64,000 nt of DNA, from IMG/VR virus record IMGVR_UViG_3300017963_000003, positions 32,001 to 96,000 of that record; one strand, 5' to 3'. The translations under genes were made by a program, and so were the position numbers. The notes under the pieces were generated by a model that saw nothing but the letters and a program-made list of their open reading frames with translations, was not told the DNA's origin and did not search any database. Below are positions 2,322-39,138 of the stretch, one piece after another (the first letter of the stretch is position 1; each line of letters opens with the position of its first letter). The stretch comes from a virus.

Positions 2322-3839
2322 CTACAACGTCATCGACTTCGTGGACAACGTACCGCTCAAGGCAGACAACAAGGTCTGCGCCGCTGTAGCCAATGTCTGG
2401 AAAGGAACAGACAGTGGCGTCAAGGGCGGAGATGATGTCGCCGTAGAAAGCGCCTGGAACGTCGTCGCCGTGAGAGTCAAGTATGCCGTCAACGCCGTGT
2501 TGAAAGTAGTACCCTTGATCAGCGGCTCTACCGCACCTGTTCCGAGCTGCAAAAGAGGAGCTTCGAAAGTCAAGTTGCCCAGACAAGTCACCACGGCAGG
2601 GCTTGCCCCAAGACTGATCGACCCCGACGCTAGGGAGATCGAAGGTGCCGTAAGAGTCATCGCCCCTGCGGAAGTGAGGTCCATGACGCCACCAGCAGTA
2701 AGACCTAGAAGACCGCCCACGGTTATGTCCCCGAGACCGCCAACAGCGACCCCGTAGTCACCACCCACATTCAAGGAGTACGAACCCCCAACAGTCAAAT
2801 CGTAGGTCCCCGTCGAAGTCCAGCTCGTAGAGGTGTTGAGAACAGTCCACGTCGAGACCGGGGTGAACCATTGGAAACCGGTAACCAACGGAGCGGAGAC
2901 TCCGTAGTTCCCCAGATTGTCTACAAGTTCCGTCCACAAGGCAACCTGGCCCGTCGCGTCGTCAAAAGTACGACGAAGAACGCGCGTAGCGGTGCCGGTC
3001 ATGGCCACCGATAGGTCCGGAGAAAAGACTTGGGGACCAACGATCTGCTTAGTCGTGTCGTCGACAACCTGACCCTCGGAGGTACGCACCATCAGGAGAC
3101 CGTTTTGGTCCACAGAAGTCAGCGAAGCGCGCCTAATGTAGTTGGTGTGCTCCTGCCCGACATTGCCAGCGCCCGGAGTGACCAAATCGTAGATGTAGCT
3201 CTCCTGGGAATCCACGCCGGGAACGAGGATGCGCCGGGCCGACCCAGCCCTGATCTCGGAAGAGTCTCCGTACCGGGTGTGCACGAGGTCGGATTGGATG
3301 CGTACCTCGCCGTTAGGCTTATCGAGAGTCACCGAGTGGGGACCTGCTGTCAGGGACGCTCGGTCCCCCAAGTAGAGAGCGCAATTCCGCGCGCTCTTGA
3401 ACGACCAGTCCCCCGGACGTAGCCGCTTACCCGAAGCATCCCCCCACCCGATGCCGCCCCTCTCTTCGTTAGCGTCATCGTACCTCTTAAAAGCAGAAAA
3501 ATCTATCGTGTGGTAGCTAAGGGAGAACGCATTCCCCATTGCGTCGAAACCCACCAACAGGGTATCGCCTATCTGGGGTAGATAGACACCCCACGAAGAA
3601 CGAAGATAGTTCTTGTCCGTATCACTTTGCTTCGGAGGGAAAGACCACCCCGCAAGAGGTATCGGGACTTCAGGACGCGGATGACCCCCTCCTTTCAGGA
3701 ACTCCACGCTCACCGTACCACGCTCCAAGTGCAAGTCCTTTACACGAACCATATGTATGGTTGAGTAAAACTCCCGGTAAAGACGTCTTTCCTCCAAGAT
3801 CGGAGAAGTACTGGGATTCATGTTGGAGCGGCCAGACAT
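2322..3839 (-). CDS. Central baseplate spike (gp5/gpV-like: N-terminal OB-fold, beta-helix repeats)
   Basis: N-terminal GTVSVEF...LPQIGDTLLVGF OB-fold pattern; 8-residue repeats TYDLTVGG/SYSLNVGG/DYGVAVGG; C-terminal LQLGTGAVEPLIKG. Confidence 0.8.
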   Translation of the reverse strand: MSGRSNMNPSTSPILEERRLYREFYSTIHMVRVKDLHLERGTVSVEFLKGGGHPRPEVPIPLAGWSFPPKQSDTDKNYLRSSWGVYLPQIGDTLLVGFDAMGNAFSLSYHTIDFSAFKRYDDANEERGGIGWGDASGKRLRPGDWSFKSARNCALYLGDRASLTAGPHSVTLDKPNGEVRIQSDLVHTRYGDSSEIRAGSARRILVPGVDSQESYIYDLVTPGAGNVGQEHTNYIRRASLTSVDQNGLLMVRTSEGQVVDDTTKQIVGPQVFSPDLSVAMTGTATRVLRRTFDDATGQVALWTELVDNLGNYGVSAPLVTGFQWFTPVSTWTVLNTSTSWTSTGTYDLTVGGSYSLNVGGDYGVAVGGLGDITVGGLLGLTAGGVMDLTSAGAMTLTAPSISLASGSISLGASPAVVTCLGNLTFEAPLLQLGTGAVEPLIKGTTFNTALTAYLTLTATTFQALSTATSSPPLTPLSVPFQTLATAAQTLLSALSGTLSTKSMTL

Positions 3840-3842
3840 TTT

Positions 3843-6353
3843 CTAACCCTTCGCGTTCTCTGACAAAAGCCTCGCGTAGTTGAACGGCGTCTCTCCTCCG
3901 AAATGCTGAAAGTCCTCTAGCTTAGGGGAAGTCCCTTCCTTGTAGACGCCTTTCCACCCCCTAGCCAGATTAACGTTAACCGTCGTATCGCAAGCGCTGT
4001 TGACGACCATGCTGTGCTGACAACTAACGATATTCGCCACGTAGTTCCTCTGCCTCCAGTACAACGGACGGTTCACCATGAGTCCAAAATGAGGGAGAGT
4101 CTGTAACCCGATATTACGAGCCTCCGCATTCGTCTTCCTTAGCTCCACCGCAGCAAAAAGACGGGCAGCCTCTTCAGAAGTGACCTCCGTCCAAGGACCT
4201 TTATCAGCTGCGGGGCGTACACCAAGCAGAGGAACAAGGCCGTGGGCTGCCGCCCACTGAAAGCGCCGAGAGTTGATGTCGTTGGCCTCTTCAACACGAG
4301 CGATGTTGTTCGGAGCTATTCGAGCCAACGTCTTGAGACCGTTATCGTTCAGCGAACTGCTGAAACCGAAGGTTTCGTGACGGTTAATAGTAAAGTAGTC
4401 AGAATAGTTAAAATTCTGCGCGTTGTAGGAACCACCGAACCCCTCCAACGTGAGCTGAAGATCCGAAGACAGCTCCATCATCTCCAAAATATCAGACTCC
4501 GTGTAGTCCCCGCTCGCAGCAGACCACTCCGACACCCATTCACGAAGCGGCTTCTCCCCTTCCTTTCGCAAACCCTGCAAACCTGCACGACCTTCGATCT
4601 CCGCATTCGTGATATGGGAGTCCTCTCCATCGAACATCCAAGGATCGAAATCGTAGAAAGGCATCTCGAAAACAAGGTCCCCCCTACCTGTGGAGTAAAA
4701 ACAGAACTGAATCTGCTCCGCCAAATCGTAAATGTAGGTAAGACGGTCACGAAAATCGGAATGGAGATCCCCCTGAGCCCCACTAACCATCTCGTTCATT
4801 ACGCCTGCGGAGAGACCGAGACCCAGACGCGTCGGGGCCACGTAAAACACACGACCACCCCCTACTGGATAGGTGTCTATGTCCGACCCAATGATGCTGA
4901 CAACGTCCACCACGCCGAGACCGTCAGAATTAGGGGCGGAGGTCTCGTCGGCAGCCATATCGGTTAGATCGTCAACACGAACCCGACTGTGCAACATGTC
5001 GTTGAGCTGACGCAGATTCCCCATCGTGATCGGACTTCCTGTGGCCTTCTCTAAACCGTCTAGCTCGGCGTCCCCGATGTAATATGCGTACACCCCCTTG
5101 GACTCTTCTTTGCGCTTAAACGTTACCCCGTGAGGAGCATACACCGGAGGGAAGAAGGACCCCTGGAACCTACTCTGCTTAGCGCCAATCAGGTACTCTT
5201 CCAAGGATGACCGCCGTTGAGTATCGGTCATCTTGTTGATTTCATCCAAACTCTTATAAACACCGTGCTTCTGAAGGAAGACCTGCACCTCTGAGTCACT
5301 GAAAGCCTCTACAGCCCGATTGGTCAACTCAGTCATGACCCCCTCGTAGGCTTCCTTACCGAAGAAGAGCATCTCCAGAATCTCGTACGCAGTAAAATGA
5401 GCAAATAGCTCCTGATACGCAACCCAGTTCAACGCGGCTACGTCGCCCGCACCCTCGAACGCAGGATCAAACTTGAAGATCTCCTGAATGCTCTTGTCGA
5501 GCCCAGCGTCTACGTTGAGCTGGAAATAAGAGTACCGAAGTGTTTTACTGACGTCAGTCCCTACGATAGTAACCGTGGACTCCTGATTCACCCCAACGTC
5601 TTCGGTGAAACCGTCTACAAAGCCGGAAAACATCCAGTACCATATGGTCGGGACAAAAGGATCGCGAAACGCAATTCTTATAGGATCGTTCGGATGGAAG
5701 ATGCAGTCACCTTCAGTAAAAGGGTACGTGTATATGTAATCTTCCAAAAAAATAGGAAACGCGTCCCAATCCTCTCCCAAGGCGTCTATGACCTTCTGAG
5801 ACTCCGGGGCATACTGCGTGGCCTTCTTTTCCACTACCGTCTTCTTTATGGAATCGGGGACAGAACCCTCCTCCCAGTTCTCCTGGAACCAACCCGAGGC
5901 AGCTCTCAACTCGTCATTGAATGCGCTAACCACGTCCACAAAAGACTGCCCCACCTGCTCATTGGCGAATGCCCCAAAAAAAGCCTCTAGTACATCTACG
6001 TCCTCCCCCGCTTCGTCGCGAAAGTACTGCTGCAACCCTGCGAAGAGGGTAACGTTGTCTTTAAGGTAGTTGACAAGCTGTTCCCGGCTGTCGCTAAGCG
6101 CAACCATATCGGTATGATCGATGATGTATTTGTCCAACGGGTTATGCAGAGTGATTGAACACGTAGAAGGAGCGCGATCCATGCTGCCCCCGGATTGGTT
6201 GACACGCACGTCTATAACGTCCCCCGACACCTCCTGCCCGTAAATGAAAACACGGAACGCCGGAAAAGCGGCGCGGTAGATGCCTTCTTGAGACGAGAGG
6301 ACCGACTGCTCCGTCCAGAGTTTTTCACCCAGTTTACCCAGTTCAACCATCAC
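3843..6353 (-). CDS. Baseplate hub protein (gp27/gpD-like)
   Basis: 836 aa; N-terminal FRVFIYG..V...TCSITL and WMFSGFVD...TIVG.DVSK.L patterns, C-terminal LMVNRPL...VSCQHS beta-barrel; position between tape measure and spike. Confidence 0.7.
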   Translation of the reverse strand: MMVELGKLGEKLWTEQSVLSSQEGIYRAAFPAFRVFIYGQEVSGDVIDVRVNQSGGSMDRAPSTCSITLHNPLDKYIIDHTDMVALSDSREQLVNYLKDNVTLFAGLQQYFRDEAGEDVDVLEAFFGAFANEQVGQSFVDVVSAFNDELRAASGWFQENWEEGSVPDSIKKTVVEKKATQYAPESQKVIDALGEDWDAFPIFLEDYIYTYPFTEGDCIFHPNDPIRIAFRDPFVPTIWYWMFSGFVDGFTEDVGVNQESTVTIVGTDVSKTLRYSYFQLNVDAGLDKSIQEIFKFDPAFEGAGDVAALNWVAYQELFAHFTAYEILEMLFFGKEAYEGVMTELTNRAVEAFSDSEVQVFLQKHGVYKSLDEINKMTDTQRRSSLEEYLIGAKQSRFQGSFFPPVYAPHGVTFKRKEESKGVYAYYIGDAELDGLEKATGSPITMGNLRQLNDMLHSRVRVDDLTDMAADETSAPNSDGLGVVDVVSIIGSDIDTYPVGGGRVFYVAPTRLGLGLSAGVMNEMVSGAQGDLHSDFRDRLTYIYDLAEQIQFCFYSTGRGDLVFEMPFYDFDPWMFDGEDSHITNAEIEGRAGLQGLRKEGEKPLREWVSEWSAASGDYTESDILEMMELSSDLQLTLEGFGGSYNAQNFNYSDYFTINRHETFGFSSSLNDNGLKTLARIAPNNIARVEEANDINSRRFQWAAAHGLVPLLGVRPAADKGPWTEVTSEEAARLFAAVELRKTNAEARNIGLQTLPHFGLMVNRPLYWRQRNYVANIVSCQHSMVVNSACDTTVNVNLARGWKGVYKEGTSPKLEDFQHFGGETPFNYARLLSENAKG

Positions 6354-26283: not shown

Positions 26284-26754
26284 CTAGCCCGACTCGGAGA
26301 CGGTCTCCGACACGAAGACAACCTTGCACCGGAGGGGGGCTCCGCCGCCACAGTTGTTGTAGATGTGCAACGCACGCGCCCGGTTACCGTCCTCCCGAAC
26401 ACGCCAACCATCCCGGACTCGGTCAGCCGGGAAGATCTCCAGGTTGGTAGAACCCTGAAAAACAGTCAGCGGAAACGTAATAGTGTTCGCCGGAAGAGTA
26501 ACCGTCGACCCCTGCTGAATACCCGTCTCGTAGTTCGGGACAGCGTAAGCCTTGGCTGGTTGACCGTAGCCGCCGCCGTAGAAGGTCTTGACGATGACGT
26601 TACCCGCACCAGCCGGAGTCTTCGGACCGTCGTAGAGCGGAATGATGTCGATGGTCAGGTTCTTGATCGGCTCGCTGACAGGGGCATCCGTCACCCTGAT
26701 CTCCTGACCATCAGGGAGATCGATCTCGATCTCTCGCTGCCTGTATCTTCCCAT
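26284..26754 (-). CDS. Hypothetical virion protein
   Basis: 156 aa, first gene behind a class A promoter motif. Confidence 0.7.
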   Translation of the reverse strand: MGRYRQREIEIDLPDGQEIRVTDAPVSEPIKNLTIDIIPLYDGPKTPAGAGNVIVKTFYGGGYGQPAKAYAVPNYETGIQQGSTVTLPANTITFPLTVFQGSTNLEIFPADRVRDGWRVREDGNRARALHIYNNCGGGAPLRCKVVFVSETVSESG

Positions 26755-26793
26755 GATTCACCTCTTTAGACGTACGTGTCCTGGTGACTATAT

Positions 26794-26825
26794 ACGATAG
26801 CATAGTCGAATGTGGGGATTCTAAA
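26794..26825 (-). promoter_or_regulatory. Class A putative late promoter TTTAGAATCCC-N15-TATCGT
   Basis: Matches the recurrent bipartite motif. Confidence 0.6.
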
Positions 26826-26854
26826 ATTGAAGAGGAAGTTCTCAGAAGGAGGAG

Positions 26855-27700
26855 CTAGAAGCGCGCACCCAACTCACGCTCTGCCCACTTCTTCACCGAC
26901 GGGTAGAAACCGTGTCCGAGCAAGTACTCCAGATCTCCCCGCGTGAGCTGCTGCCCCTCGTCGAGATCCCGCAACTCGTCCAACATCGGCCCGGCCTTCA
27001 TCCGGTCCTTCTCCTCGACGTCGTCCCCCACGCTGTTGCAGATGCCCACTACACGCGCCGTGACCTTGTCCTGGGGGTCCATGGGCTCCGCCTCACGCTC
27101 CTCGGCCATCTGCTCGATGGTCTTGCGCGGCTCCGGAGAGGGCTTCGTGAAAGTGCGTCGGTTCTGGAGGTCAGACTGCTCCTGGTGAGCCATGTCGATG
27201 GCCTCCTCAGCCGAGATACCGTACTGAGCACCGAGCTTCTCGTAGTACTCCAAGTACTCCCCCTCGTCCATGAGGACGAGTACCGGCGGACGGCGGTTGA
27301 CCATCTTGCGCAGGTCCGTGGACGCCTTGATGGCGTGGAACGGAACGAGCTGCGTCAAGTTGATCGGCTTCTTCCCCTTCGGGATGAGGATCGACTCGGT
27401 GCGACCCACGATAAGCTCGAACTGGAGCGACACCTGAGTGTTACTGCGGTTCTGCACGTAGACGTCGCGCTCCTCACGGAAGTACTCCGTGAAGTTGGTG
27501 ATGATCGGAACCCTGTTACCTTGACCGTTCATGACAACCTCCCTGGGATCTCTCGCCAGTTTGATGATGAAAGGCTCTCGCTTCACCACGACAGCCTTCC
27601 CCTTCTTGACCAGTTTTCTCGCCCTGGCGGGATGGGTGTACGACAGGACGGACCCGGACGTGTCCAAAACCGGGACCCGCGAACCTGTCGTACGTACCAT
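26855..27700 (-). CDS. Protein with N-terminal PLMP/RRXRR-type domain fused to an uncharacterised capsid-associated protein
   Basis: VPVLDTSGSVLSYTHPARARKLVKKGKAVVVKREPFIIKL matches the IscB/RRXRR N-terminal consensus. A second in-frame ATG at 27532 has its own GGGAGG SD. Confidence 0.75.
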   Translation of the reverse strand: MVRTTGSRVPVLDTSGSVLSYTHPARARKLVKKGKAVVVKREPFIIKLARDPREVVMNGQGNRVPIITNFTEYFREERDVYVQNRSNTQVSLQFELIVGRTESILIPKGKKPINLTQLVPFHAIKASTDLRKMVNRRPPVLVLMDEGEYLEYYEKLGAQYGISAEEAIDMAHQEQSDLQNRRTFTKPSPEPRKTIEQMAEEREAEPMDPQDKVTARVVGICNSVGDDVEEKDRMKAGPMLDELRDLDEGQQLTRGDLEYLLGHGFYPSVKKWAERELGARF

Positions 27701-27702
27701 CA

Positions 27703-27811
27703 GTGACCTTCAGGTGTGCCAGGGTGTTACCCTACCTCCCGCCGAAGCGGGGTTCATCGGATTAGGCGGCGGCGCGCGATGCGCCGCCGCCTGCACCTGC
27801 TTCCACGTCAC
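27703..27811 (-). ncRNA. Candidate structured RNA element between the capsid gene and the PLMP-domain gene
   Basis: Perfect 12-bp stem 27764-27792, cUUCGg hairpin 27738-27751, 5-bp hairpin 27721-27733, closing stems 27711-16/27794-99 and 27703-07/27807-11. Confidence 0.5.
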
Positions 27812-27814
27812 GCG

Positions 27815-29077
27815 CTACTTCTGGCCCTTGGCGCAGGAGCGAGCGTTGGCAATCGCGAACCCGACCATCTCGATGAAGGCCCAGCCCTTGACCGTCTCCT
27901 GGTGGCTGTACTTGTTGTACGGCTCGGAGAACAGCTCGATCCTGACACCCATCTCGCCCATGTAATCCGCGCCCGTCGTGGCATAGAAGCTTCCGGGCTC
28001 GATCACCTCTTCAACCCCCGTGCCTGCGGCGGTCAGAATCTGGGCGTTCAGGACGTTGCCGATGTAGCCCGCGAGGATCAACTCGCGCTCCGTCACCGGG
28101 TCCACGCTGGTCGACATGGTCTTGACGATGTCGCTCAGCTCGGACCGCGAGATCAGGAAGTTCTCGACCATCAGACGATGGCGCTCGACCTGGAACCGGA
28201 CGTCCTCGAAGGCGCCGATGCCCAACGTCGCGAACGTGGTCACGGCGTTGTCGGTCTGCGCGGCCTCGTCGATGAGGCTGATCGCAGCCTTGTCCTCCTG
28301 AAGCTCGATCTCCTGACGCGCGGTGTCCTGCGCCCGGTCGAGGACATCGAAGTTCATCTGGTAGATGTCCATGATGTCGATGGCCGGGAAGCTCGTCACC
28401 TTCCACTCGGGCGGGGTGATCCACTTCGTCTTGATGCGGCTCTCGGGGGACTGACCGTCCTGGCCGATGACCCACGCCGTCGAACGGATGTCCAGCGGGA
28501 TACGGAACAGCTCGGCCTGGGCCAGCTTCCGAACCCGGTAGATCTTCCGCGCGAAGCCCTCGTAGTCGAGGATCGCCTTGATCGGGAGCGCCAGCTCCTG
28601 ACCGACGATGTGGAAGCCCTGTCCGGTCGGGTCGGTGAGCGCGGCGGCGAGAATGTCGCGCCGAGCTTCCTTGCTGATCGAGGTCTCCGTGTCGGGACGG
28701 TAGAAGGAGAGCGCCTGAGCGTTCTTCTTCGTGACCTCGTTCATCAGCTGATGGATCTGCGTCATCGCCTCGCGCTTGTCGTGCGCGTTGATCTCACCCC
28801 TGCCGTCGAACATGCGACGGTCGGTGCTGCTGGCGGTGGCGCGACGGCTCGACGGAAGGTCGTACCGCTGCGGGTTGAACGTGCCGTTGCCCTCGAAGAG
28901 GCCCTCGTCGCGCTTGTTGGCGAAGCGGCCCGGACGTACGGCCATGCGGTCACGCGGCTGCTCGGAAGCCTCGCGACGGGGAGCGCGCTGTCGCCGGGTC
29001 TGGTCGCCATTCCTCTGCGCGGACCGCGAGGGGCCGGGGCGACGATTCTTGCTGATGCTCTTGAACGGATTGGACAT
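27815..29077 (-). CDS. Major capsid protein (HK97 fold)
   Basis: 420 aa in the order protease-scaffold-decoration-MCP; LALPIKAILDYEGFARKI...SFPAI...DVLDRAQD.ARQEI..QED pattern; strongly C/G-biased codons. Confidence 0.9.
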   Translation of the reverse strand: MSNPFKSISKNRRPGPSRSAQRNGDQTRRQRAPRREASEQPRDRMAVRPGRFANKRDEGLFEGNGTFNPQRYDLPSSRRATASSTDRRMFDGRGEINAHDKREAMTQIHQLMNEVTKKNAQALSFYRPDTETSISKEARRDILAAALTDPTGQGFHIVGQELALPIKAILDYEGFARKIYRVRKLAQAELFRIPLDIRSTAWVIGQDGQSPESRIKTKWITPPEWKVTSFPAIDIMDIYQMNFDVLDRAQDTARQEIELQEDKAAISLIDEAAQTDNAVTTFATLGIGAFEDVRFQVERHRLMVENFLISRSELSDIVKTMSTSVDPVTERELILAGYIGNVLNAQILTAAGTGVEEVIEPGSFYATTGADYMGEMGVRIELFSEPYNKYSHQETVKGWAFIEMVGFAIANARSCAKGQK

Positions 29078-38789: not shown

Positions 38790-39138
38790 TTTCCTTCACG
38801 TAGCTCTCTCCCTGCGGAGGTACGACCACGAGGCGCTCCACGTCGACTTGGTTGTCAGGCGACAGGTTCAGCTCCCGCAGGATCTGCTGCTGGACCTTCA
38901 CCGAGTCGTCCCTCGCGCTCATGACGTTGGTCTGCGCCGTACGCATGGCATCCTGGGCCGAGCGGAACCGAGTCTCGGCCTCAGTGATGGTCATGTACGC
39001 CAACCGAACCTCCGCACGATGGGCGCGGTTGAGCTTCACGACGGCCCTACGAGGAGAGACCGGCTCCTCAGTGGTGGGATTCTCGTCGTTGGGCTTGTCT
39101 TCGACAGGGGTGAGGTCGGGCTTCTTCTTGTCAGACAT
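38782..39138 (-). CDS. Coiled-coil hypothetical protein upstream of portal
   Basis: 118 aa, AAGGAG SD, overlaps the portal start. Confidence 0.7.
   Translation of the reverse strand: MSDKKKPDLTPVEDKPNDENPTTEEPVSPRRAVVKLNRAHRAEVRLAYMTITEAETRFRSAQDAMRTAQTNVMSARDDSVKVQQQILRELNLSPDNQVDVERLVVVPPQGESYVKENG

What the first reader, a model, noticed from the sequence alone, without database searches (positions are those of the whole stretch)
27703..27811. The whole capsid-to-PLMP intergenic region folds into a multibranch RNA abutting the start codon
Seen in sequence: AGGCGGCGGCGC/GCGCCGCCGCCT (12 perfect bp), CCCGC-TTCG-GCGGG (cUUCGg tetraloop on the transcribed strand), AGGGT/ACCCT, all enclosed by CAGGTG/CACCTG and GTGAC/GTCAC. 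The last stem ends 2 nt before ATG 27700 and would cover the weak AAGG SD region. No U-tract follows the main hairpin. Inference: this is a cis-regulatory or processed small RNA and the natural ligand candidate for the adjacent PLMP domain. It does not resemble omegaRNA sequences as I recall them.
Basis: partly seen in the sequence, partly recalled or inferred. Interest (0 to 1): 0.7.

Follow-up and report, generated by a model that had tools for sequence, protein, structure and literature searches.

The report
Structured leader of phage PLMP gene
The gap between a 192-kb phage's major capsid gene and the next gene encodes a three-hairpin RNA; its last two hairpins keep their pairing across distant relatives and are laid out like the hairpins that the neighbouring protein's PLMP domain grips in transposon RNA-guided nucleases (IscB/IsrB), so this may be a captured RNA-protein pair reused to control a capsid-module gene.

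Summary
All the stems named are present at 27703-27811 (- strand), and the fold is stronger than all 200 shuffles (-63.5 kcal/mol, z -3.7).

The three parts differ across 19 distinct related loci:
- **P1** is a perfect GC hairpin just after the capsid stop. It is always present, is never conserved in sequence, and is terminator-like.
- **P2-AG-P3** is a pair of tandem hairpins with strong covariation: 89.5% of cells paired against 72% in shuffles and 42-51% in slid controls, and 9 of 10 pairs changed on both sides.
- **The enclosing multibranch helices** are only partly conserved.

The downstream ORF begins with a true PLMP domain. Pfam scores it above cut-off, and it superposes on IscB/IsrB PLMP domains at Z 6-7.7. 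The phage genome holds one PLMP domain and one copy of the RNA, side by side.

Published IscB/IsrB structures show PLMP binding the terminal tandem hairpins of the omegaRNA, one of which holds the gene's Shine-Dalgarno sequence. The phage element has the same layout. However, Rfam HEARO and two IscB-derived covariance models do not detect it, so homology is unproven, and binding is inferred rather than shown.

A conserved internal SD+ATG at Met57 predicts two isoforms, one with PLMP and one without.

Verdict: a conserved cis-acting RNA and a plausible PLMP ligand. I class it as a new variant of a known kind.

The parts
27815..29077 (-). Major capsid protein gene (420 aa). Its stop codon TAG at 27817-27815 opens the gap.
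   Evidence: phrog_2522 major head protein, E 1.7e-58. The capsid is the upstream neighbour in the related loci whose upstream sequence was read.
27807..27811 (-). 5' strand (GUGAC) of the outer closing helix. It pairs with GUCAC at 27703-27707.
   Evidence: Present in the MFE structure. It is not conserved as such in relatives.
27794..27799 (-). 5' strand (CAGGUG) of the inner closing helix. It pairs with CACCUG at 27711-27716.
   Evidence: My reading of the sequences suggests analogous helices with different sequences in L004 (CCUUGGU/ACCAAGG) and L008 (UGGUG/CACCA). The MFE fold draws such a helix in L008 but not in L004. It is absent in L003, L013, L111 and L167.
27764..27792 (-). P1: a 12-bp perfect GC hairpin with loop AUCGC. 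It is terminator- or stabiliser-like and has no U-tract here.
   Evidence: Every relative has a strong, long (about 10-13 bp) hairpin of unrelated sequence at this place. In L167, L111 and L004 it is followed by UUUUU.
27738..27754 (-). AAC + P2 (CCCGC-UUCG-GCGGG). This is the conserved first tandem hairpin. Its 3' strand plus the following AG forms GGGAGG.
   Evidence: 97.9% of cells paired over 19 loci, and 4 of 5 pairs changed on both sides. The bases AC before the stem are invariant, and AG after it is kept in at least 90% of loci.
27735..27740 (-). GGGAGG, a Shine-Dalgarno-like element held between P2 and P3, 35 nt upstream of the ATG.
   Evidence: GGAG or AGAG is kept in all clades. RNAalifold pairs the trailing G-U with the UGGC that follows P3.
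27718..27735 (-). P3 (AGGGU-AAC-ACCCU, 27733-27721), with a possible extension GGU/UGGC. This is the conserved second tandem hairpin.
   Evidence: All 5 pairs changed on both sides somewhere in the family, and 81% of cells are paired despite misaligned distant rows. The extension pairs are seen.
27703..27716 (-). 3' strands of the closing helices (CACCUG, GUCAC), which cover the proximal weak SD AAGG (27710-27707).
27533..27700 (-). The PLMP domain coding part (residues 1-56) of the 281-aa ORF at 26855-27700, with start ATG at 27700-27698.
   Evidence: PF14239, 40.4 bits (cut-off 25), residues 9-54 against profile positions 1-46 only. TbaIscB E 1.8e-6. Z 6.1-7.7 and rmsd 2.1-4.0 A to five IscB/IsrB PLMP domains. 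The N-terminus M-x-RTTGS is conserved.
27530..27544 (-). Internal ribosome-binding site: AGGGAGG (27544-27538) followed by ATG (27532-27530) at Met57.
   Evidence: An SD 5-9 nt before a conserved ATG is present in 15 of 15 loci from all clades. Gene callers start there. In L174 this position is the start of a separate gene.
26855..27529 (-). The body of the protein (residues 57-281): a beta domain plus a helical domain of unknown function.
   Evidence: AF2 pLDDT 92, with a low-confidence linker at residues 58-61. The only fold relatives are uncharacterised proteins of PaBG, Motura and BcepSaruman jumbo phages.

Best explanation
The gap is the structured leader of the mRNA for the PLMP-bearing long form of a capsid-module protein.

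- **P1.** Directly after the capsid stop, P1 acts as a partial terminator or 3' stabiliser. It steps expression down from the abundant capsid protein. This is inferred.
- **P2-AG-P3.** This pair of adjacent hairpins holds a GGGAGG element. It has the same layout as the terminal SD-containing tandem hairpins of IscB/IsrB omegaRNAs, which the PLMP domain binds in solved structures.
- **Proposed mechanism.** The PLMP domain encoded immediately downstream binds these hairpins on its own message and clamps the leader. In the window's clade the leader also pairs the proximal SD and start region with upstream sequence. Binding would limit further initiation at ATG 27700, giving negative feedback on the long isoform. 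This step is inferred.
- **Short isoform.** The body of the protein is made independently from the conserved internal SD+ATG at Met57.

Shown here: the structure, its covariation, its one-to-one adjacency with the only PLMP domain in the genome, the PLMP fold, and the internal ribosome-binding site. Inferred: the binding, the direction of regulation, and descent from an omegaRNA tail.
For: - **Fold.** z -3.7, with 0 of 200 shuffles folding as well. All 17 relatives folded show P1, and most also show P2 and P3. P3 is not drawn in the MFE fold of L014 or L107, and P1 is weak in L170.
- **Covariation on 19 distinct loci.** 89.5% of cells are paired, against 72.1 +/- 1.9 in shuffles (0 of 500 reach it) and 42-51% with slid partners. 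9 of 10 pairs have changes on both sides, and the covariation score is 0.535 against 0.06-0.11. RNAalifold keeps only P2 and P3.
- **Specificity.** Model R1 hits only the gap upstream of the PLMP gene (directly after the capsid gene wherever that flank was read), once per locus, in IMG/VR and metagenome loci. It hits once in the complete 192,260-bp genome, which also has exactly one PLMP domain. About 60 other pattern hits were chance.
- **PLMP domain.**. R28 is the only invariant residue among 63 family representatives.
[quoted passage not shown] - **IscB loci fetched here.** They show UUAC-stem-tetraloop-stem-AG, an optional second hairpin, and then the PLMP start. The phage element reads (U)UAAC/UUUAC-stem-loop-stem-AG-NN-hairpin-start.
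- **Variable loops.** The P2 and P3 loops vary freely (UUCG, GAAA, GUAA and others), which fits sequence-independent recognition.
- **Start region.** In most members of the window's clade the SD or start region is predicted to pair with upstream sequence.
Against: - No binding or expression data exist.
- Rfam HEARO does not match the window, even at E <= 10 in the local search.
- Covariance models built only from IscB tails (R2, R3) do not pick out the phage element. The best scores are 8.5-10 bits in L106 and L013, at noise level, and nothing scores in the window. The shared features are short (AC, a GC stem, AG). An SD inside a hairpin could arise independently.
- In IscB/IsrB the PLMP domain sits against RuvC and TI domains that are absent here, and the eponymous PLMP motif is VLSY in this family.
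- Two AT-rich relatives keep PLMP but lack P2/P3: L171, and L174 where PLMP is a separate 64-aa ORF.
- In the window the GGGAGG lies 35 nt from the ATG, so it is not the working SD of that start.
Confidence: 0.45

Rival explanations
1. This is an ordinary cis-acting mRNA structure with no role for PLMP. P1 terminates or stabilises the capsid message. P2/P3 and the closing helices only set how often ribosomes start at the PLMP start. They could do so by masking the SD and start, by coupling opening of the helix to ribosomes finishing the capsid gene, or, in relatives where the start follows P3 directly, by bringing the GGAG close to the start as in T4 genes 38 and 25.
For: - The 5' strand of the closing helix begins 4 nt after the capsid stop, and its 3' strand covers AAGG.
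- Different sequences keep start-region pairing in L005, L008, L012, L013 and L017.
- In L170, L015, L107 and L111 the start codon lies 3-9 nt after P3 with GGAG just before P3.
- P1 is followed by a U-run in low-GC relatives.
- The IscB-derived models fail to detect the element.
- PLMP exists without P2/P3 in L171 and L174.
Against: - P2 and P3 are kept with compensatory changes over lineages whose proteins share only 40% identity, while the start-proximal layout changes. The distance from P3 to the start varies from 3 to 22 nt, or an extra hairpin intervenes as in L172. A pure masking or bridging device would be expected to track the start.
- The invariant AC and AG flanks, and the exact parallel with the RNA known to be bound by this very domain, would be coincidence (PMC9581776).
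Confidence: 0.38
2. The RNA is a stable processed small RNA that the PLMP-bearing isoform carries as a ribonucleoprotein, for example into the capsid or to a target. That would make it a minimal omega-like RNP rather than a regulator of its own gene.
For: - PLMP is flexibly tethered to a capsid-module protein (linker pLDDT below 50 at residues 58-61).
- The stable GC hairpins would protect a processed fragment.
- The element occurs once per genome, next to the only PLMP domain.
Against: - There is no guide-like variable segment other than P1, which is self-paired.
- No nuclease domain is present.
- There is no evidence of processing.
- The body has no known function.
Confidence: 0.08
3. This is a DNA-level signal, such as a promoter, a recombination site or a homing site, and the hairpins are incidental.
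For: CUGGCAC resembles the -24 box of sigma-54 promoters. This is a resemblance recalled from memory only.
Against: - No TTGC-like -12 element lies at the right spacing.
- The GGC of that box pairs in the P3 extension.
- The covariation preserves pairing rather than sequence, and includes G-U pairs valid only on the transcribed strand.
- No sigma-70-like promoter is found in the gap.
Confidence: 0.04

Closest known systems
Terminal tandem hairpins of omegaRNAs (SL7/SL8 of IsrB; 'terminal hairpins' of IscB, just 3' of the Rfam HEARO model)
   Same: - They lie immediately upstream of the start of a PLMP-domain ORF.
- The first hairpin is a short GC stem with a stable tetraloop. It is preceded by (U)UAC or AAC and followed by AG, so that GGAG is half inside the stem.
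- An optional second hairpin follows 1-3 nt later.
- Loops vary freely.
- PLMP is the partner domain.

Sources; PMC9581776; PMC9640706.
   Different: - The rest of the omegaRNA is absent. The HEARO model finds no match. No guide segment and no transposon ends were seen, though neither was searched for specifically.
- Models built from IscB tails do not score the phage element above noise.
- The protein has no RuvC, bridge helix, HNH or TI domain.
- In the window's clade, 20 nt and a second weak SD lie between P3 and the start.
SD-to-start bridging hairpins of phage T4 genes 38 and 25 (from established knowledge, not checked in a paper here)
   Same: In L170, L015, L107 and L111 a GGAG is followed by a short hairpin, and the start codon comes 3-9 nt later. 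Folding would bring the SD and the start to a working distance.
   Different: - In the window the start is 20 nt beyond P3.
- The GGGAGG is itself largely paired.
- This does not explain the conservation of P2.
Autoregulatory leaders bound by their own gene product (ribosomal protein operons, T4 gp32/RegA type), and long-range translational coupling as in MS2 coat-replicase (from established knowledge)
   Same: - A structured leader is next to the gene of an RNA-binding domain.
- The start region is paired with sequence lying just after the upstream gene's stop.
   Different: No binding or coupling has been shown here. The binding domain is an exapted transposon-nuclease domain fused to a structural-module protein.
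Intrinsic terminators and 3' stabiliser hairpins after major capsid genes
   Same: P1 is a strong, long GC hairpin within about 25 nt of the capsid stop. It is free to vary in sequence, and a U-run follows it in low-GC relatives.
   Different: There is no U-tract in the window. P1 explains nothing about P2/P3.

Membership tests
omegaRNA / HEARO (Rfam RF02033) | Match to the family covariance model at the gathering score | tested here: not met
   No Rfam family reaches its gathering score anywhere in the window. No HEARO hit appears even at E <= 10 in 26500-29000. The same model scores 89-142 bits on seven IscB loci fetched here.
omegaRNA / HEARO (Rfam RF02033) | Terminal SD-containing hairpin or hairpins directly upstream of a PLMP-domain ORF | tested here: met
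   The layout AC-stem-loop-stem-AG, then a second hairpin, then the PLMP start is seen in 19 phage loci and in IscB loci. This is a match of layout, not of sequence.
omegaRNA / HEARO (Rfam RF02033) | Detectable by a model built only from IscB terminal hairpins | tested here: inconclusive
   R3 gives no hit on the window's element. It gives only 8.5-10 bits, at noise level, on the true elements of L106 and L013. The model is very small (26 positions, 4 pairs).
omegaRNA / HEARO (Rfam RF02033) | 5' guide segment and IS200/605 transposon ends | not tested
   No search for transposon ends was made. The gap is only 114 nt, between two phage structural genes.
PLMP domain (N-terminal part of Pfam PF14239 RRXRR) | Profile match above the curated cut-off | tested here: met
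   40.4 bits against a cut-off of 25, residues 9-54 on profile positions 1-46 of 174. TbaIscB E 1.8e-6.
PLMP domain (N-terminal part of Pfam PF14239 RRXRR) | Fold: a small beta sheet plus one helix, superposable on solved PLMP domains | tested here: met
   The AF2 model has pLDDT 95-97 over residues 10-50. Z 6.1-7.7, rmsd 2.1-4.0 A and 35-44% identity for most chains (26% for HfmIscB), on TbaIscB, HfmIscB, DtIsrB, OrufIscB and 9liq. Foldseek's top nine matches are all IscB or IsrB.
PLMP domain (N-terminal part of Pfam PF14239 RRXRR) | The P-L-M-P motif itself | tested here: not met
   The aligned residues are V-L-S-Y. L19 and S20 are invariant in nine close relatives.
IscB / IsrB / IshB proteins | RuvC and/or HNH nuclease domain following PLMP | tested here: not met
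   Pfam covers only profile positions 1-46, and no other domain is found. The body has an unrelated fold.
Intrinsic (factor-independent) terminator, for P1 | GC-rich hairpin followed by a U-tract | tested here: inconclusive
   The hairpin criterion is met. The U-tract is absent in the window but present after P1 in L167, L111 and L004.
SD-start bridging hairpin (T4 gene 38/25 type) | Start codon within a few nt after a hairpin that follows the SD | tested here: not met
   In the window the ATG is 20 nt after P3. The criterion is met only in the L170, L015, L107 and L111 lineages.

The most novel reading that the evidence does not exclude
A group of roughly 200-kb environmental phages has domesticated a minimal piece of an OMEGA (IscB/IsrB) system: the PLMP domain together with the SD-bearing tail hairpins of its omegaRNA. 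The nuclease and the guide have been stripped away. The phages use this RNA-protein pair as a self-contained switch or tether that sets the amount, or the RNA loading, of an N-terminally extended isoform of a capsid-module protein.
Probability: 0.3. Interest if true: 0.8.

Novelty: new variant of a known kind. Interest (0 to 1): 0.62.

Why it matters
PLMP is known only as an accessory domain of the RNA-guided nucleases IscB, IsrB and IshB. Its suggested role in regulating expression through the SD hairpin has never been isolated from nuclease function. In this phage family the domain and a look-alike of its RNA partner occur alone, in a phage structural operon.

- **A natural minimal system.** It would allow a direct test of what PLMP does with RNA.
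- **Exaptation.** It would be an example of a transposon part reused by a virus.
- **Annotation error.** It explains a systematic fault: gene callers start this gene family at the internal site and lose the PLMP domain.
- **A new RNA family.** Even on the modest reading, it is a conserved phage RNA structure that Rfam does not match.

Tried and rejected
- **Rfam.** Rfam on the region at E <= 10, and on the whole window at gathering score, returned only noise.
- **Pattern scan.** The pattern ACCCCG..CGGGAG..CTGGCA in IMG/VR gave 79 stretches. Only those in gaps upstream of PLMP genes (after the capsid gene where that flank was read) score with model R1; the rest are chance.
- **IscB-derived models.** R2 (34 positions) and R3 (26 positions) were run against the phage loci with default filters and with filters off. 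Neither detected the element. R1 found nothing upstream of about 50 IscB-like PLMP genes.
- **PLMP-less homologues as a natural control.** This failed as a control. Of five 'short' or odd database proteins, P0014, P0025 and P0035 are gene-call artefacts with PLMP in frame upstream. P0077 has a diverged PLMP. P0031 has PLMP as a separate ORF.
- **Sigma-54 reading of CUGGCAC.** Rejected, because there is no -12 box and the bases pair in the P3 extension.
- **P2-like hairpin in Rctr197k and L175.** A hairpin AAC-CGGC..GCCG-AGG was seen by eye, but the folds are not better than shuffles (z +0.66 and +0.67). I do not count these loci.
- **Fold of the protein body.** There was no convincing PDB match. 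Only generic helical hits at Z 5-6.4 covered residues 205-281, and the beta domain was barely tested.
- **Scripts.** The script machine was lost. No R-scape-like statistics, trees or scripted alignments could be made.

Full report
**Observation.** I read the region on the - strand. The 114-nt gap lies between the stop of the major capsid gene (27815-29077; phrog_2522, E 1.7e-58) and ATG 27700 of a 281-aa ORF.
- P1 at 27792-27764, with 12 perfect base pairs;
- P2 at 27751-27738, with a UUCG loop;
- P3 at 27733-27721;
- the enclosing helices CAGGUG/CACCUG and GUGAC/GUCAC.

RNAfold returns exactly this multibranch fold. It scores -63.5 kcal/mol against -49.8 +/- 3.7 for 200 shuffles (z -3.7), and no shuffle folds as well. 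No U-tract follows P1, and the pattern scan finds no terminator or sigma-70 promoter in the gap.

**Context.**
- The window lies in a complete 192,260-bp phage record with direct terminal repeats.
- The downstream ORF begins with a PLMP domain. PF14239 scores 40.4 bits against a cut-off of 25, and only profile positions 1-46 of 174 match, so no RuvC part is present.
- An AlphaFold2 model built on 63 family representatives has mean pLDDT 91.9. A disordered linker sits at residues 58-61.
- Residues 7-56 superpose on the PLMP domains of TbaIscB, HfmIscB, DtIsrB and OrufIscB, and on the IscB of entry 9liq. Z is 6.1-7.7, rmsd 2.1-4.0 A, and identity 35-44% for most. By sequence, TbaIscB matches at E 1.8e-6.
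- The eponymous motif reads VLSY rather than PLMP.
- The body (residues 62-281) resembles only uncharacterised proteins of the jumbo phages PaBG, Motura and BcepSaruman.

**Relatives.**
- Searches with the protein found 17 viral loci, and a further set of full-length relatives among metagenome contigs (L097-L113, several of them the same contigs as the viral loci). Their protein identity to the window runs from 69% down to 40%.
- The metagenome search also found about 50 loci that match only the PLMP part.
- Of the 20 PLMP-only loci scanned with Rfam, seven carry the HEARO omegaRNA directly upstream and so are IscB elements.
- A profile search of 1.8 billion representatives found 561 proteins at E <= 0.001, 97 of them at E <= 1e-30.
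- The nearest named phage is Virus Rctr197k, with 73% nucleotide identity in the capsid gene.

**What is conserved in the RNA.** I folded the gap of 17 relatives. All show a strong hairpin right after the capsid stop, and most show two small hairpins after it. The exceptions are L014 and L107, where the MFE fold omits P3, and L170, where P1 is weak.
- **P1** is different in sequence in every lineage. In lower-GC relatives it is followed by a U-run (L167 CUCGGGGCUUUUUAAC; L111; L004). That is the behaviour of a terminator or 3' stabiliser.
- **P2 and P3** are conserved. On 19 distinct loci, 89.5% of cells pair, against 72.1 +/- 1.9 when partners are shuffled (0 of 500 shuffles reach the observed value). 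Only 42-51% pair when partners are slid by 1-3 columns. Nine of ten pairs show changes on both sides, for example CCCGC/GCGGG, CCACC/GGUGG, CUACC/GGUAG and CUGUC/GACAG in P2.
- **G-U pairs** occur on the transcribed strand, so the structure is RNA of the sense strand.
- **RNAalifold** on the window's clade retains only P2 and P3. It adds pairs that tie the GGU after P2 to the UGGC after P3. This explains the conserved CUGGCA and leaves GGGAGG almost wholly paired.
- **The closing helices** are kept only in part of the clade, and by different sequences. By eye, L004 has CCUUGGU/ACCAAGG and L008 has UGGUG/CACCA. The MFE fold draws such a helix in L008 but not in L004. In L005, L013 and L017 the paired region includes the start codon, and in L012 the helix masks GGAGA. 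In most members the start region is masked somehow, but the multibranch picture is not a family character.

**Specificity.** A covariance model of P2-P3 (R1) hits only the gap upstream of the PLMP gene, which follows the capsid gene wherever that flank was read. It hits once per locus, and once in the whole genome, which also holds exactly one PLMP domain. A loose sequence pattern gave 79 stretches in IMG/VR. All those outside this context failed the model.

**Link to PLMP.** Two structural papers bear on this.
[quoted passage not shown] I read the sequence between the HEARO 3' end and the PLMP start in the IscB loci fetched here. It runs ...AUUAC, then a 4-bp stem, a tetraloop and the closing strand, then AG. 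After that comes either the start 6-9 nt later, or a second small hairpin and then the start.

The phage element reads UUAAC-CCCGC-UUCG-GCGGG-AG-GU-P3 in the window. In the L107/L111 lineage it reads UUUAC-CCACC-GAAA-GGUGG-AG-CU-P3, and there the start follows P3 by a few nucleotides. In position, geometry, flanking bases and partner domain, P2 corresponds to SL7 and P3 to SL8.

**Limits of that link.**
- The whole omegaRNA is absent.
- Two models built from IscB tails alone (R2, R3) do not recover the phage element. The window's copy does not score, and the copies in L013 and L106 reach only 10.0 and 8.5 bits among noise.
- R1 finds nothing upstream of the IscB genes.
- Homology of the RNA is therefore not shown. 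A GC hairpin that half-buries an SD could be convergent.
- The AT-rich relatives L171 and L174 have PLMP but no P2/P3.

**Gene structure.**
- An SD (AGGGAGG, 27544-27538) lies 5 nt before ATG 27532, which is Met57, exactly at the PLMP-body linker.
- An SD 5-9 nt before this ATG is present in 15 of 15 loci from all clades.
- Gene callers use this site. That is why many database members look PLMP-less. In L167, L170 and L176 the PLMP codons lie in frame upstream. L175 has a diverged PLMP.
- In L174 the PLMP is a separate 64-aa ORF, with a stop, ahead of the body gene.
- The family therefore always pairs PLMP with the body. Most members probably make two isoforms.

**Mechanism.** My preferred reading has confidence 0.45.
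- P1 lowers read-through or stabilises the capsid message.
- P2-AG-P3 is the binding site of the PLMP domain made from the same message.
- Binding, together with masking of the start region, limits initiation at ATG 27700.
- The body is made from its own site at Met57.

The main rival (0.38) keeps the RNA as a translational or terminator structure without PLMP involvement. That could include coupling to ribosomes that finish the capsid gene, since the closing helix begins 4 nt after the stop. Minor rivals are a carried small RNA (0.08) and a DNA-level signal (0.04).

**Novelty.** A search of the paper library for PLMP together with phage and capsid found nothing. I rate the element a new variant of a known kind: a PLMP domain with a look-alike of its RNA partner, outside any nuclease, conserved in a phage capsid module. 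Earlier first-reader notes on this window had seen the orphan PLMP domain and the internal start. I tested and confirmed both.

Noticed in passing
window 27530-27544 (- strand): A conserved internal ribosome-binding site (AGGGAGG + 5 nt + ATG at Met57) sits exactly at the PLMP-body linker. It is present in 15 of 15 related loci and predicts a 281-aa and a 225-aa isoform.
   Followed up: yes
L167 1756-2000; L170 1-240; L176 1-98: Public gene calls for this family often start at the internal ATG. Database proteins of about 212-250 aa therefore look PLMP-less, although the PLMP codons lie in frame upstream.
   Followed up: yes
L174 350-544 and 601-1362: In an AT-rich relative the PLMP domain is a separate 64-aa ORF with its own stop. 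It lies downstream of a dCMP deaminase gene and 56 nt ahead of the body gene. No P2/P3 hairpins precede it.
   Followed up: partly
window 26855-27529 (- strand): The body of the protein (a beta domain plus a helical domain, pLDDT above 90) has fold relatives only among uncharacterised proteins of about 200-245 aa from the jumbo phages PaBG, Motura and BcepSaruman. These are of body length (about 200-245 aa), too short to include a PLMP domain.
   Followed up: partly
L172 83-190: One relative carries an extra 11-bp hairpin (UAUUCCAAA..UUUGGAAUA) between P3 and the called start. Its P1 is reduced to GCC-GUAA-GGC.
   Followed up: no
window 38802-38822 (-) and 5119-5141 (+): These are weak hits (11.7-13.6 bits, E 1.4-4.4) of the IscB-tail model R3: UACC-UCC-GCA-GGGAG-AG and AACGUUACCC..GGAG. 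They may be other SD hairpins or chance.
   Followed up: no
L001 (KX853510.1, Virus Rctr197k) 3805-3933: This is the nearest named phage. Its gap has a 13-bp hairpin after the capsid stop. Its 379-aa downstream gene starts with a diverged PLMP-like segment that the profile did not align.
   Followed up: partly
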